A DNA stretch of 10,303 bases from a virus (Duplodnaviria; Heunggongvirae; Uroviricota; Caudoviricetes). The stretch is taken from IMG/VR virus record IMGVR_UViG_2681813186_000015. One strand, given 5' to 3'. Each line of letters begins with the position of its first letter. The stretch's first letter is position 1. Under the pieces are notes generated by a model. That model saw nothing but the letters and a program-made list of their open reading frames with translations, made no database searches and was not told the DNA's origin. The position numbers and the translations under genes are program-made. This document shows positions 1,230-4,269 of this stretch, piece by piece.

Positions 1230-1889
1230 ATGAAAATGAAATGGTATGAACTGGCTAGATCCAGAATGAAAGAGCTCGGCATAACTCAAGAGAAGTTAGC
1301 CGAAGAGCTAGGTATGACGCAGGGTGGAATTGGACACTGGTTGCGCGGATCTCGTCATCCATCTCTTAGTGATATTGGTGTGGTGTTTAAATACCTTGGT
1401 ATTGATAACATATCATTCAACCACGACGGGACATTTTCACCTGTTGGCGAATACTCATCGGCCCCAGTTAAAAAACAATATGAGTACCCTGTTTTTTCTC
1501 ATGTTCAGGCTGGGATGTTCTCTCCAGAACTCAGAACCTTTACCAAAGGTGATGCGGAGAGATTGGTAAGCACAACCAAAAAAGCCAGTGACTCTGCATT
1601 CTGGCTTGAGGTTGAAGGTAACTCAATGACCGCACCAACAGGTTCCAAACCTAGTTTTCCTGACGGGATGTTAATTCTGGTTGACCCTGAGCAAGCTGTT
1701 GAGCCCGGCGATTTCTGCATAGCCAGACTTGGTGGTGATGAATTTACCTTCAAGAAACTGATCAGGGATAGCGGTCAGGTGTTTCTACAACCACTAAACC
1801 CGCAATATCCAATGATCCCATGCAATGAGAGTTGTTCCGTTGTGGGGAAAGTTATCGCCAGCCAATGGCCTGAAGAGACGTTTGGGTAA
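1230..1889 (+). CDS. cI: CI-like prophage repressor, N-terminal HTH plus C-terminal S24 (LexA-like) self-cleaving peptidase domain
   Basis: [24 protein letters not shown]; Ala-Gly cleavage site in HVQAGMFSP; catalytic Ser in EGNSM and Lys in FTFKKL. The track start at 1188 is a TTG; first ATGs are at 1194, 1230 and 1236. 1230 was chosen because it fits a leaderless PRM transcript; 1236 has better spacing from AAGGA (1224-1228). Confidence 0.9.
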
Positions 1890-2207
1890 AGAGGATAGAT
1901 GGAGTTTAATGGCCATGAGTATCAAGCGGTCAAAAAGAAGTTCATCTATTCATTGAAAGCATAAGGCCATCTGAGTATATCCGTAATGATCTGGATATTG
2001 TCTATAACATCAATGACCGGACGATAGATATCGGTGAGCAGCGTCCTGTATGGCAGGGTGAGGCAGGTGAAAAAACGTCCTGCCATCAACAAGAATCAAG
2101 TGCATCCGCTCTCTGGACAGATGGAAAATTTATTGGATGCAAAAAGATATGAAATAACACCTGTATAGCACGGAGCTTTCTCTGACCGATGCACTTGAAG
2201 TTGTTAG

Positions 2208-2232
2208 GGCTGACCCAGCCTGCTGTTTCTTT
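2208..2232 (+). terminator. Candidate Rho-independent terminator, first of a tandem pair downstream of cI
   Basis: Stem GGCTG (2208-2212) pairs with CAGCC (2216-2220), loop ACC, followed by TGCTGTTTCTTT. Confidence 0.4.
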
Positions 2233-2263
2233 AGGTAAGAGAAAAGAGATTTAGGAGATGAAA

Positions 2264-2290
2264 GGTCGCAGAGGTGCGGCCTTTTTTATT
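2264..2290 (+). terminator. Rho-independent terminator downstream of the cI transcript
   Basis: GGTCGCA (2264-2270) pairs with TGCGGCC (2275-2281), 7-bp stem with one G-U, loop GAGG, followed by TTTTTTATT (2282-2290). Confidence 0.6.
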
Positions 2291-2329
2291 GAGAGTGGAT
2301 CTTGAACGGAAATTCTCAAGACTTGAGTC

Positions 2330-2358
2330 TTGCATGCAAATCAATTCCTGGATAAACT
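2330..2358 (+). promoter_or_regulatory. Candidate sigma70 promoter for the 173-aa accessory gene
   Basis: -35 TTGCAT (2330-2335), 17-nt spacer, -10 TAAACT (2353-2358). Overlaps palindromes CTCAAGaCTTGAG (2315-2327) and TGCATGCA (2331-2338). Confidence 0.3.
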
Positions 2359-2390
2359 CGATCTGAGTCAATAACTTAGAGAGAGAGCAA

Positions 2391-2912
2391 ATGGCAAAGT
2401 CAAACGTTAGCGTGCAGGCATTCAAGGACTTCCTTGAAGAGCTTATGTCGCTGAACATAATGAAGGAGGCCACCGCTCGAAATTTAAAAAACTCATCCGC
2501 TCGCCTCTTAACGGTAGTCCAAGAAGAGGAAATGGGTGATGTTACTCAGCTTGATGTGAATGAGCTTGCCGAGCGATACATCAACGCAACTGAGCCGAAG
2601 CCTAGCGACAGCAGCATTACTGCATATAAAAGCCGCATGGAAAGTGCAATCAAAAAGTTTGTAGCTTTCCAGTCTGGTGAAGAAATCCCATACACTCCGA
2701 TTGACAAAGAATCCAGTGAGGAAAAAGATTTGACTGGCGAACCAACAAAAGTCGAAGGCAAGGCTAATGCACTTCATACCTATGATCTTCCAGTAGTTCT
2801 TCGACCTGAATCAGGGGTTACAGTAACGATTAAAGGCATTCCTAACGATATCACAAACGAAGAAGCCGAACGCATCTCTTCAATTCTGAAGGTTTACGTT
2901 CGGCCTCAATAA
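2391..2912 (+). CDS. Hypothetical acidic 173-aa protein of unknown function, inserted between cI and pL (accessory 'moron' gene)
   Basis: Complete ORF with a GAGAG-type ribosome-binding site; candidate own promoter upstream and hairpin downstream; lies after the cI terminators and before pL. Appears more AT-rich than neighbouring phage genes (by eye). Soluble, rich in D/E, no motif I can assign. Confidence 0.6.
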   Translation: MAKSNVSVQAFKDFLEELMSLNIMKEATARNLKNSSARLLTVVQEEEMGDVTQLDVNELAERYINATEPKPSDSSITAYKSRMESAIKKFVAFQSGEEIPYTPIDKESSEEKDLTGEPTKVEGKANALHTYDLPVVLRPESGVTVTIKGIPNDITNEEAERISSILKVYVRPQ

Positions 2913-2924
2913 TGCAAAAGCATT

Positions 2925-2963
2925 CAGCACAATGTCCAACTCCCCAGTCCGACATTGATGCTG
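2925..2963 (+). other. Stem-loop just downstream of the 173-aa gene (possible weak terminator or 3' stabiliser)
   Basis: CAGCAcAATGTC (2925-2936) pairs with GACATTgaTGCTG (2951-2963), about 11 bp with a small bulge, 14-nt loop, followed by a short TTT. Confidence 0.35.
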
Positions 2964-3085
2964 TTTAACCAGAGCCTCCAAAAGGAGCCCTTGTTAAGGT
3001 ACACAATATTTGCGATGTAACCTTAGCGCGTCTGGTACATTTTTTCAAGCGGTTGTAGGGCTGCCGCCAATATGAGAAAACACAG

Positions 3086-3208
3086 ATGTCTACATACAAT
3101 TTGAATGACCAATTCGATCGAGAAGTTCATGTGAATGCCTATGAACGGATAAGGTATGGAAATCTTGAACATGTGTGTGAGCATTATCGCTCAAGGCCAC
3201 ACCGCTAA
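3086..3208 (+). CDS. Possible small ORF (39 aa), or a short non-coding transcript, ending at a strong terminator
   Basis: ATG 3086 to TAA 3206-3208, translation MSTYNLNDQFDREVHVNAYERIRYGNLEHVCEHYRSRPHR; weak ribosome-binding site; possible promoter TTCAAG-18-CAATAT upstream; strong terminator 8 nt after the stop. Coding status uncertain. Confidence 0.2.
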   Translation: MSTYNLNDQFDREVHVNAYERIRYGNLEHVCEHYRSRPHR

Positions 3209-3215
3209 TCATCAA

Positions 3216-3244
3216 CCCGGCCTCCATGCCGGGTTTTCTTTTCC
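3216..3244 (+). terminator. Rho-independent terminator (plus strand) just upstream of the pL-like promoter
   Basis: CCCGGC (3216-3221) pairs with GCCGGG (3228-3233), loop CTCCAT, followed by TTTTCTTTTCC. The minus-strand version has no U-tract. Confidence 0.65.
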
Positions 3245-3378
3245 TCTCGCCCAAAAAAACACATAACCAATTGTATTTATTGGAAAATAAATAGATACAA
3301 CTCACTAAACAACGCAATTCTGATCTCTCCTTACATCGCCGAGGCAATACACCCACGCTAAAAAACAATACTATTAAA

Positions 3379-3451
3379 TACAAAGCGTTGTAAAAAACCG
3401 CCCCGTTTTAGAACAAATTGTATTGACCAAGTGAAGTACATATCGTACTAT
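3379..3451 (+). promoter_or_regulatory. pL-like early-left promoter with candidate OL operators
   Basis: -35 TTGACC (3423-3428), 17-nt spacer, -10 TACTAT (3446-3451). Near-palindromes TACAAAGCGTTGTA (3379-3392) and AGTACATATCGTACT (3437-3451) share TACA/GTA half-sites with the OR-region palindromes. Confidence 0.55.
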
Positions 3452-3496
3452 TTAACCATCAGCAGGACGCTGGAAGCCAAATGGAACAGACTGGCA

Positions 3497-3640: not shown

Positions 3641-3913
3641 ATGTCCAGAAAAACAGAATTTAAAGGCACCGCAGCTTCTCGCCGTAGAGCTCGTCGCGCA
3701 AACCTGCAAAGTCAGGAGGCGATTAGCTCCGACAAACTACACAGGCCAACCCCATCACGAGTGGTCTTACAATGCAAACGCAAACCAGCAATGAGAGCAG
3801 AAGTAATAACACTGACAACGTTGACCAGAAAATATGAAGGCTCAACTTGTCTTCCAAATGTAGCTCTTTACGCGGCAGGCTACCATAAATCCAAACAACT
3901 GACAGCAAGATGA
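3641..3913 (+). CDS. N: N-like transcription antitermination protein (arginine-rich motif)
   Basis: Internal ATG at 3641 with GGAGG (3631-3635) 5 nt upstream; 90 aa; N-terminal arginine-rich motif GTAASRRRARRANLQ resembles the boxB-binding motif of lambda N (…QTRRRERRAEKQAQW…); first gene after the pL-like promoter and nutL. The upstream part of the track ORF (from 3569) overlaps the nut site and was dropped. Confidence 0.6.
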   Translation: MSRKTEFKGTAASRRRARRANLQSQEAISSDKLHRPTPSRVVLQCKRKPAMRAEVITLTTLTRKYEGSTCLPNVALYAAGYHKSKQLTAR

Positions 3914-3971: not shown

Positions 3972-4223
3972 ATGGAATTTCATGAAAGTGCGATTTGTGA
4001 TTTTCGCGCTAACGCAAATTCAGTAAAACCACAGCCAATTGCAGTTCTTTTAAAAACAATGGGTGCGTGGGCTGTTTTATGCTTCGCCGCTGACGACACT
4101 GACGCAAGAATGGCAATAGGACAAGAGATGGAGATGGACCCGACAAACGATGAATTCATAATTTATGGCGCTCCATCTAATTACTTACTTGATACCTGCA
4201 ACATTTACAACAAGGCTGCCTGA
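3972..4223 (+). CDS. Hypothetical protein, 83 aa
   Basis: ATG 3972 with GAGG 6 nt upstream; sits where lambdoid phages carry ral-type accessory genes; no homology recognised. Confidence 0.5.
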   Translation: MEFHESAICDFRANANSVKPQPIAVLLKTMGAWAVLCFAADDTDARMAIGQEMEMDPTNDEFIIYGAPSNYLLDTCNIYNKAA

Positions 4224-4269
4224 TGGTGGCCTTTATTTTTGGCATAAACAACAGAATAAACACAGCACT

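What the first reader, a model, noticed from the sequence alone, without database searches (positions are those of the whole stretch)
3000..3244. Short terminated transcription unit (39-aa ORF or small RNA) immediately upstream of pL
A strong plus-strand intrinsic terminator (3216-3244) lies only 8 nt after a 39-codon ORF (3086-3208), with a possible promoter TTCAAG-18-CAATAT upstream and no long ORF to account for it. This could be a small protein partner of the 173-aa gene, a small regulatory RNA, or an insulator that stops upstream transcription reading into pL.
Basis: seen in the sequence. Interest (0 to 1): 0.45.

Follow-up and report, generated by a model that had tools for sequence, protein, structure and literature searches.

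The report
Prophage microprotein gene ending at immunity terminator
The short ORF is a real, conserved 40-residue protein gene, the second gene of a mobile two-gene cassette in a Shiga-toxin prophage. Its terminator is the counterpart of phage lambda's immunity-region terminator, so the anatomy is ordinary but the small protein's function is unknown.

Summary
The window is the immunity region of a VT2-Sakai/Sp5-type Stx prophage, read so that cI, pL and N point rightwards. The ORF (3086-3208; 40 codons, not 39) and the terminator (3214-3244) are both real.

- **Terminator:** it is homologous to lambda T_IMM and 933W tM, and was annotated in 1999.
- **ORF:** it was annotated as H0092 and later dropped by PGAP. 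It is under strong purifying selection (pN/pS 0.04-0.2) and has an invariant Shine-Dalgarno. It belongs to an uncurated microprotein family (phrog_21154; 320 clusters).
- **Cassette:** the ORF almost always lies about 175 nt downstream of the 173-aa gene (ECs1184). That protein carries an integrase core-binding-like domain and was reported as undeletable. The pair also occurs in unrelated phage contexts.
- **Promoter:** The published Hfq-binding peak EcOnc20 (window 3048-3173) starts upstream of its predicted start site. Transcription more likely comes from a conserved promoter upstream of the 173-aa gene.
- **Expression:** published RNA-seq and Ribo-seq show signal here in uninduced lysogens.

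Verdict: a known kind of element, a lysogen-expressed moron ending at T_IMM, carrying an uncharacterised microprotein. Interest is moderate.

The parts
2260..2289 (+). Intrinsic terminator at the upstream edge of the cassette (GGTCGCA-gagg-TGCGGCC followed by T6). It separates cI and the DUF3024 remnant from the cassette.
   Evidence: Free energy -15.9 kcal/mol, z = -4.5. Conserved at 90-92% in front of the cassette in Oslo, P. vulneris, L031 and Proteus contexts.
2319..2334 (.). Palindrome CAAGACT-TG-AGTCTTG overlapping the -35 hexamer. Candidate operator; this is an inference.
   Evidence: AAGACT(T/A)AGTCTTGC is conserved in six cassette contexts. No binding test was possible.
2330..2358 (+). 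Predicted cassette promoter, TTGCAT-17-TAAACT (TTGCTA-17-TAGAAT in relatives).
   Evidence: Aligned and conserved about 35 nt upstream of the 173-aa ATG. The second cassette lineage has TTGATT-17-TATTAT at a fixed 31-32 nt from the ATG in seven contexts. No transcription start data.
2391..2912 (+). 173-aa gene (ECs1184 / H0093 / phrog_2602). The N-terminal domain resembles a tyrosine-recombinase core-binding (SAM-like) domain. It is followed by a disordered linker and a small beta-beta-alpha C-terminal domain.
2925..2963 (+). Long hairpin just after the 173-aa stop codon, followed by only UUU. Possible attenuator, processing site or stabiliser.
   Evidence: Free energy -16.6 kcal/mol, z = -5.3. 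The stem is invariant in five variants and the loop is inverted in phage Oslo. The SH2026-type cassette has a canonical terminator at the same place.
2913..3085 (+). Structured spacer or leader of about 173 nt between the two genes.
   Evidence: Spacer length is 169-174 nt in five of the cassettes compared. Six helices with 95% of cells paired. Eight pairs changed on both sides against 3.7 +/- 1.3 in shuffles (1 of 500) and 0-3 in slid controls. Only five distinct sequences were available.
3042..3078 (+). Hairpin pairing UUUUCA (3042-3047) with UGAGAA (3073-3078) and GCGGU (3049-3053) with GCCGC (3063-3067).
   Evidence: Helices 5 and 6 (three pairs with changes on both sides). The hairpin alone is not unusually stable: -11.2 kcal/mol, z = -0.55.
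3074..3078 (+). Shine-Dalgarno core GAGAA, 8 nt before the ATG.
   Evidence: Invariant in all five cassettes aligned, including the divergent SH2026 type (GGAGAA).
3086..3208 (+). 40-aa microprotein gene (H0092). Family motif: VxVxxYxRxRxGxxExVxxHxRSxP.
   Evidence: pN/pS 0.04-0.21 with pS 0.28-0.91, and indels in multiples of three. phrog_21154 E = 2.3e-8. 320 representative clusters at E <= 1e-3. AF2 gives four short beta strands with core pLDDT 85-95.
3048..3173 (+). Published Hfq-CRAC peak EcOnc20 (Tree et al. 2014) after coordinate conversion.
   Evidence: Listed as Sakai 1255628-1255753, minus strand. The offset of +142 to NC_002695.2 was verified with the EcOnc27 probe. It was also verified by the exact match of XECs114 to window 3156-3263.
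3214..3244 (+). Intrinsic terminator, homologue of lambda T_IMM and 933W tM.
   Evidence: Annotated as 'putative rho independent terminator for pRM transcript' in AP000422. Aligned with lambda and 933W.
3245..3329 (.). Conserved linker between the terminator and oL, shared with lambda.
   Evidence: 87.5% identity to lambda over window 3214-3329 (alignment).
3376..3451 (+). oL operators (3376-3392, 3409-3425, 3434-3450) and pL (TTGACC-17-TACTAT, 3423-3451).
   Evidence: Annotation of AP000422 transferred with an offset of 121. Promoter scan.

Best explanation
Window 3000-3244 is the 3' half of an autonomous two-gene accessory cassette, a 'moron'. It occupies the slot between cI and oL/pL that rexA-rexB fill in lambda.

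**Shown**
1. The 40-codon ORF encodes a conserved microprotein.
2. It is physically linked to the 173-aa gene for a core-binding-domain protein, across several phage types.
3. The hairpin at 3214-3244 is the homologue of lambda's immunity terminator T_IMM.
4. The 173-nt spacer is a conserved structured RNA whose last hairpin pairs with the Shine-Dalgarno.

**Published**
- The region is transcribed and carries ribosome footprints in uninduced Sakai.
- Hfq crosslinks to 3048-3173.

**Inferred**
- Transcription starts mainly at the conserved promoter at 2330-2358, reads through the 173-aa gene and the hairpin at 2925-2963, and stops at 3240-3244. That stop keeps lysogen transcription out of oL/pL.
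- Translation of the microprotein is limited by the leader hairpin that occludes the Shine-Dalgarno, and may be modulated by Hfq.
- The 173-aa protein binds DNA and represses its own promoter through the palindrome at 2319-2334.

**Function.** The microprotein's cellular target is unknown. I think it most likely acts in the lysogen as an accessory effector whose dose is held down by this cassette.
For: **Identity of the region**
- 99.8% identity to VT2-Sakai, whose record annotates H0092 and the terminator.

**Coding**
- pN/pS is 0.04-0.21 in two lineages, and indels are in frame.
- The Shine-Dalgarno core is invariant.
- Family matches: phrog_21154 and 320 clusters in an exhaustive HMM search.
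- AF2 gives a confident beta fold.

**Linkage to the 173-aa gene**
- Shown: **Cassette edges and promoter**
- Shown: **T_IMM homology**
- Shown: - In lambda, pRM and pLIT transcripts end at T_IMM just after rexB (bioRxiv 10.1101/2021.04.19.439022).

**Leader structure**
- Shown: **Expression**
- XECs114, which overlaps 3156-3263, has RPKM 452-807 for RNA and 88-135 for footprints in uninduced cultures (PMC5597208).
- Hfq peak EcOnc20 (PMC4104026).

**173-aa protein**
- Its N-terminal domain has a core-binding fold.
Against: - No transcription start or 3'-end mapping was available, so read-through of the hairpin at 2925-2963 is assumed. In the SH2026 lineage that position holds a canonical terminator, which argues for a separate promoter there.
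- The leader covariation rests on five sequences, and the Shine-Dalgarno hairpin alone is no more stable than shuffles.
- Distant family members stand alone, without a 173-aa partner. In some cassettes the slot holds an unrelated small ORF. A specific protein-protein partnership is therefore doubtful.
- ECs1184 gave only background signal in an RNA-binding assay, and no DNA-binding test exists (PMC7618764).
- The cassette has no distinct base composition.
- PGAP does not call the ORF.
Confidence: 0.7

Rival explanations
1. Independent short transcription unit. The microprotein gene has its own promoter in the spacer, either the reader's TTCAAG-18-CAATAT or another, and is expressed separately from the 173-aa gene, as rexB is from pLIT in lambda.
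For: - A strong hairpin or terminator follows the 173-aa gene in both lineages.
- Distant family members are standalone genes that must have their own promoters.
- Lambda offers a precedent: pLIT-rexB-T_IMM.
- Weak promoter-like matches occur at the same aligned columns in Oslo and L031 (7 of 12).
Against:
- Its start, near 3080, would cut off the invariant Shine-Dalgarno.
- EcOnc20 reads begin at 3048, upstream of that start.
- No spacer promoter is conserved across variants.
Confidence: 0.25
2. Addiction or toxin-antitoxin-like module. The microprotein is harmful when overproduced, and the 173-aa protein keeps it in check by repressing the cassette or by direct neutralisation. This would explain why ECs1184 could not be deleted.
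For: - ECs1184 could not be deleted in an Sp5 lysogen, and the authors judged the deletion lethal (PMC5155283).
- A palindrome overlaps the cassette promoter, and the 173-aa protein has a DNA-binding-type fold.
- Translation of the microprotein looks restrained.
- One distant member lies beside a ToxN-like gene.
Against: - The microprotein family mostly stands alone.
- The slot can hold unrelated small ORFs beside a 73-77% identical 173-aa protein.
- A 173-nt spacer is atypical for type II pairs.
- There is no hit in PADLOC or in any toxin family.
- The failed deletion has other possible causes. ECs1180 was also undeletable.
Confidence: 0.2
3. Hfq-dependent regulatory RNA (EcOnc20), either instead of a protein or as a dual-function RNA that ends at the terminator.
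For: - An Hfq-CRAC peak appears in four of five datasets.
- An intrinsic terminator with a U tail lies within 70 nt of the peak's 3' edge.
- The RNA level is high relative to footprints (RCV 0.01-0.30).
Against: - Strong purifying selection acts on the amino-acid sequence, with saturated synonymous change. A purely noncoding RNA is therefore excluded.
- No northern blot, no target and no Rfam match exist.
- Hfq also binds mRNAs near ribosome-binding sites (abstract of PMC4104026).
Confidence: 0.12
4. A terminator or insulator only. The ORF is a chance reading frame.
For: - PGAP leaves the ORF unannotated in 233 E. coli genomes.
- The terminator is conserved far more widely than the ORF.
Against: - Selection on the amino-acid sequence, the invariant Shine-Dalgarno, homologues as distant as Ralstonia phages, and 320 family clusters.
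Confidence: 0.02

Closest known systems
Lambda T_IMM and the pLIT-rexB unit (immunity-region terminator after rexB); 933W tM
   Same: Same position, between the last lysogen-expressed gene and oL, and same strand as cI. The sequence is homologous: 87.5% to lambda over window 3214-3329, with an identical stem. In lambda a short second unit (pLIT-rexB) also ends there.
   Different: The upstream cargo is unrelated to rexA and rexB. The loop sequence differs. In other phages the same cassette is joined to other loops and right arms, so the hairpin also serves as a recombination junction. Here a separate terminator at 2260-2289 may already stop pRM transcripts.
Morons of lambdoid prophages (Juhala et al. 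2000; review PMC3594210)
   Same: An accessory unit with its own predicted promoter and terminator. It is found in different phage backbones and slots and is expressed in the lysogen.
   Different: It has two genes separated by a long structured spacer, and it shows no compositional contrast with its surroundings.
EcOnc20, candidate Hfq-binding sRNA of Sp5 (Tree et al. 2014)
   Same: Same locus and strand after coordinate conversion.
   Different: The peak covers the ribosome-binding site and the first 29 codons of a conserved coding sequence. It is better read as Hfq bound to an mRNA leader.
XECs114, 'novel small gene' of Sakai (Hucker et al. 2017)
   Same: Overlaps window 3156-3263 on the same strand, and the RNA-seq and Ribo-seq signals are real.
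   Different: It is in another reading frame, runs through the terminator, and is not conserved: the ATG is lost in L006 and the C-termini vary. The footprints fit 3086-3208 better.
Recombinase-derived phage regulators with a core-binding domain (SPbeta MrpR, phi3T SroF)
   Different: There is no catalytic-like domain, the protein is only 173 aa, and no sequence similarity or DNA-binding data exist.

Membership tests
T_IMM-type immunity-region intrinsic terminator of lambdoid phages | G+C-rich hairpin followed by a U tract on the cI strand | tested here: met
   8-bp stem with 6 G-C pairs and tail TTCTTTTCC. Free energy -14.3 kcal/mol, z = -5.0.
T_IMM-type immunity-region intrinsic terminator of lambdoid phages | Sequence homology to lambda T_IMM and its flank towards oL | tested here: met
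   87.5% identity over 120 aligned positions to lambda and 83% to 933W tM. The stem is invariant.
T_IMM-type immunity-region intrinsic terminator of lambdoid phages | Lies between the last lysogen-expressed gene and oL/pL | tested here: met
   About 130 nt upstream of the outermost annotated operator.
T_IMM-type immunity-region intrinsic terminator of lambdoid phages | Terminates transcription in vivo | not testable with these tools
   Only indirect evidence. Footprint coverage of 0.74 over 3156-3263 is compatible with RNA ending near 3240.
Moron (autonomous accessory transcription unit) | Own promoter | tested here: inconclusive
   Conserved sigma-70-like hexamers lie upstream of the 173-aa gene in both lineages. 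No start-site data.
Moron (autonomous accessory transcription unit) | Own terminator | tested here: met
   The terminator stem travels with the cassette into non-immunity contexts.
Moron (autonomous accessory transcription unit) | Same unit in different backbones and positions | tested here: met
   Found in the cI-pL slot, downstream of Q in P. vulneris, and in a non-lambdoid Klebsiella phage context.
Moron (autonomous accessory transcription unit) | Base composition distinct from its neighbours | tested here: not met
   GC is 0.41-0.46 throughout.
Hfq-dependent trans-acting sRNA | Bound by Hfq in vivo | tested here: met
   From the literature only: EcOnc20, in four of five CRAC datasets.
Hfq-dependent trans-acting sRNA | Discrete small transcript, noncoding, with defined targets | tested here: not met
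   The sequence is coding. No northern blot or target has been reported, and there is no Rfam match.
Type II toxin-antitoxin pair | Obligate pairing of two adjacent co-evolving genes | tested here: not met
   The microprotein is standalone elsewhere, and the slot is swapped for unrelated ORFs.
Type II toxin-antitoxin pair | Antitoxin cannot be removed while the toxin is present | not testable with these tools
   The hint comes from the literature only: ECs1184 could not be deleted.
phrog_21154 microprotein family | Profile match and shared motif VxVxxYxRxRxGxxExVxxHxRSxP | tested here: met
   E = 2.3e-8 for the window protein and 1.9e-31 for the SH2026 copy. Invariant residues are listed.

The most novel reading that the evidence does not exclude
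The 28-residue beta core defines a large, undescribed family of microproteins on mobile elements that act on a central host machine. About one in six members carry a C-terminal Q-L/Y-x-F-x-F tail. From memory this resembles a sliding-clamp-binding motif. In this prophage the microprotein would be the dose-sensitive effector of an addiction or defence module. Its transcription would be repressed by the core-binding-domain protein ECs1184. Its translation would be gated by an Hfq-bound leader that occludes the Shine-Dalgarno. This would explain why ECs1184 cannot be deleted.
Probability: 0.12. Interest if true: 0.7.

Novelty: new member of a known kind. Interest (0 to 1): 0.4.

Why it matters
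- **Annotation.** The locus sits in the Stx2 prophage of E. coli O157:H7 Sakai and is carried by at least 233 complete E. coli genomes, yet current RefSeq annotation leaves it blank. Three earlier readings of the same DNA disagree: hypothetical protein H0092, candidate sRNA EcOnc20, and 'novel gene' XECs114. The comparative evidence settles the frame. It also shows that the Hfq peak lies on an mRNA leader.
- **A testable lead.** The evidence links an unnoticed microprotein to ECs1184, one of only two early-region Sp5 genes that could not be deleted. That gives a simple experiment on what stabilises this Stx2 lysogen.
- **Limits.** The terminator itself is textbook lambda biology.

Tried and rejected
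- **AsxR/AgvB-type anti-sRNAs.** These lie near stx2, not here.
- **Scans for more spacer variants.**
  - The metagenome pattern scan returned only known variants and two unrelated hits.
- **Promoter in the spacer.** The scan found nothing conserved.
- **33-aa ORF in the spacer.** It is annotated in phage Oslo but is frameshifted in the window, so it was rejected.
- **XECs114 frame.** Rejected because it is not conserved.
- **Upstream neighbours of distant family members.** They are not homologous to the 173-aa protein.
- **Data not reachable.** Start-site and Term-seq tables of Sy et al. 2020 are not held. The afdb50 fold library was unavailable.
- **Complex prediction.** Not attempted. I expected the tool's input rules to refuse a fused big-plus-small sequence, and both structure-prediction jobs were then spent on the two single proteins.

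Full report
**What the window is.** Bases 2380-3480 are 99.8% identical to VT2-Sakai (Sp5), Nil2, Stx2 phage 1717 and many O157 prophages. The window is read so that cI (1236-1889), the 173-aa gene (2391-2912), pL (3423-3451) and N (3641-3913) all lie on the + strand. The record AP000422 already annotates the 40-aa ORF as H0092. It also annotates the hairpin as 'putative rho independent terminator for pRM transcript'. RefSeq's PGAP annotation leaves the ORF blank in all 233 complete E. coli genomes that carry it.

**Check of the observation.**
- The ORF 3086-3208 has 40 sense codons, not 39.
- The terminator has an 8-bp stem (3214-3221 with 3228-3235), loop CTCCAT and tail TTCTTTTCC. It is the top-ranked site in the scan, with a free energy of -14.3 kcal/mol and z = -5.0.
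- The proposed promoter, TTCAAG (3044-3049), 18 nt, CAATAT (3068-3073), is present but matches 6 of 12 positions. Promoter-like sites in the window are not enriched over shuffles.

**The terminator is lambda's T_IMM.**
- Window 3206-3300 matches more than 170 lambdoid phages at 80-87%, including lambda, HK97, H-19B and 933W. Several records label the site as the immunity-region terminator, or tM.
- In an eight-way alignment the stem is invariant. The flank towards oL is shared with lambda, 933W and SH2026. Identity to lambda is 87.5% over window 3214-3329.
- In lambda, pRM and pLIT transcripts end at T_IMM immediately after rexB.
- Otherwise identical cassettes are joined to different loops, right arms and downstream DNA. 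The hairpin is therefore also a recombination junction between modules.

**The ORF is a real gene.**
- Window against Oslo: 7 synonymous and 1 non-synonymous difference. Across two lineages pN/pS is 0.04-0.21, while pS reaches 0.28-0.91. Length differences are multiples of three.
- The Shine-Dalgarno core GAGAA, 8 nt before the ATG, is invariant even in the divergent SH2026-type cassette.
- The protein matches phrog_21154 at E = 2.3e-8. A 57%-identical copy sits in the same place in phage SH2026Stx1. A 36-aa homologue followed by a terminator lies downstream of an Xre/ImmA pair in Ralstonia P2-like phages.
- An exhaustive profile search found 320 representative clusters at E <= 1e-3. Nearly all are standalone proteins of 30-50 aa. 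They share the motif KxVxVxxYxRxRFGxxExVxxHxRSxP.
- AlphaFold predicts four short beta strands with core pLDDT of 85-95.
- No Pfam, NCBIfam, PADLOC or PDB relative exists.

**It belongs to a two-gene cassette.**
- In nearly all of about 55 loci with a 173-aa homologue, the microprotein follows about 175 nt downstream.
- The pair occurs in four settings. It lies between cI and pL in Sp5, Oslo, SH2026 and a Logan contig. It lies downstream of the Q antiterminator in Pseudescherichia vulneris. It also lies between convergent genes of a non-lambdoid Klebsiella phage.
- Homology among contexts starts 45-70 nt before the 173-aa ATG. It is preceded by a conserved terminator at 2260-2289 (-15.9 kcal/mol).
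- A palindrome (2319-2334) overlaps a conserved promoter, TTGCAT-17-TAAACT, at 2330-2358. The second lineage carries TTGATT-17-TATTAT at a fixed 31-32 nt from its ATG in seven contexts.
- The exceptions are informative. L031 and three Proteus-type loci carry unrelated small basic ORFs in the same slot. One locus has an IS1 insertion and one has a truncated ORF.
- Distant family members have unrelated neighbours or none.

**The 173-aa protein.**
- AF2 gives a confident four-helix N-terminal domain, a disordered linker and a small beta-beta-alpha domain.
- Mondal et al. could not delete this gene (ORF23/ECs1184) in an Sp5 lysogen and judged the deletion lethal.
- It was borderline in an RNA-interactome screen but gave background signal in a PNK assay.

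- The 173-nt spacer folds into six helices, with 95% of cells paired across five variants. Eight pairs changed on both sides, against 3.7 +/- 1.3 in shuffles (1 of 500) and 0-3 in slid controls.
- The first helix (2925-2963; -16.6 kcal/mol) follows the 173-aa stop codon. The SH2026 lineage has a canonical terminator at that position.
- The last two helices pair 3042-3047 with 3073-3078 and 3049-3053 with 3063-3067. On its own this hairpin is not unusually stable (z = -0.55), so its support comes from conservation only.
- A start at about 3080 from CAATAT would remove the Shine-Dalgarno.

**Published expression data.**
- Tree et al. list EcOnc20, an orphan Hfq-CRAC peak at Sakai 1255628-1255753 on the minus strand, with no northern blot.
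- Their coordinates refer to NC_002695.1. The offset to version 2 is +142. The EcOnc27 probe supports this. So does the exact coincidence of Hucker et al.'s XECs114 (1255538-1255645) with the window ORF 3156-3263.
- EcOnc20 is therefore window 3048-3173, which covers the leader hairpin, the ribosome-binding site and 29 codons.
- XECs114 shows RNA RPKM of 452 in LB and 807 in BHI, and footprint RPKM of 135 and 88, in uninduced cultures.
- Its own frame runs through the terminator and is not conserved. The footprints are better assigned to 3086-3208.

**Mechanism.**
- Shown: a conserved microprotein gene, its linkage to ECs1184, the T_IMM homology and a conserved structured leader.
- Published: transcription, ribosome footprints and Hfq binding in the lysogen.
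- Inferred:
  - transcription from the promoter at 2330-2358 through both genes to 3240-3244;
  - autoregulation through the palindrome;
  - restrained translation that may be modulated by Hfq.
- Unknown: the microprotein's target. The undeletable ECs1184 invites a toxin-antitoxin-like reading. The standalone distribution of the family and the swapping of the slot argue against an obligate protein pair.

**Verdict.** This is an ordinary kind of element, a lysogen-expressed moron ending at the immunity terminator, and both parts were annotated or listed before. Three results are new. The reading frame is resolved. The ORF is recognised as a member of a sizeable uncurated microprotein family. 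It is linked, through a structured leader, to an apparently essential prophage gene. Interest is moderate.

Noticed in passing
window 2925-2963; L005 2839-2877: The 14-nt loop of the hairpin after the 173-aa gene is the reverse complement in Salmonella phage Oslo (CAACTCCCCAGTCC against AGACTGGGGAGTTG), while the stem is unchanged. This looks like a loop inversion by template switching.
   Followed up: partly
window 1862-2284: This stretch is 82% identical to the DUF3024 gene region of 933W and SH2026Stx1, but no intact ORF remains. It is apparently a pseudogene between cI and the cassette.
   Followed up: partly
window 3214-3244; L014, L018, L025, L029: Cassettes that are the same up to the left arm of the terminator (apart from the Y24H substitution) continue with different loops, right arms and downstream DNA. 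Recombination breakpoints therefore fall inside the T_IMM hairpin.
   Followed up: partly
L031 3720-3860; L011 3705-3875; L004 1901-2029: In some cassettes the slot after the 173-aa gene holds an unrelated small basic ORF. One is 47 aa with a CxxC motif and IFRPYIIDKNGKKRFPKNSRVFPIPV. The other is 57 aa and matches phrog_33859. A Ralstonia phage has both kinds of small ORF in tandem.
   Followed up: partly
family members P0058-P0194: 24 of 144 family members end in P-G/H-Q-L/Y-x-F-x-F directly after the core. From memory this resembles a beta sliding-clamp binding motif. The window copy lacks it. Not tested.
   Followed up: no
L068 486-1105: One distant family member lies 57 nt downstream of a ToxN-like gene (PF13958, 26.1 bits against a cut-off of 25).
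   Followed up: no
window 3972-4223: The 83-aa gene after N (ECs1180, phrog_2471) was the other early-region gene that could not be deleted in Sp5 (PMC5155283). A terminator-like hairpin at 4212-4233 overlaps its 3' end.
   Followed up: no
window 3155: The only difference from Sakai inside the ORF is T against C. It gives Tyr24 instead of His24, at a position that varies in the family (Y, H, N or F).
   Followed up: yes
window 3090-3383, minus strand: A 97-aa antisense ORF overlaps the microprotein gene and the terminator. A shorter form of it is annotated as ORF B55 in AP005153. The codon-level selection on the + strand frame suggests it is spurious.
   Followed up: partly
window 1701-1885: The C-terminal part of cI is 94% identical to lambda cI at the DNA level, while the N-terminal part and the operators differ. 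The repressor is a mosaic.
   Followed up: no
L003 2220-2254 and relatives: In the SH2026/Klebsiella-type cassette the Shine-Dalgarno of the large gene also lies in the 3' arm of a small hairpin (CCTCATC...GATGAGG).
   Followed up: no
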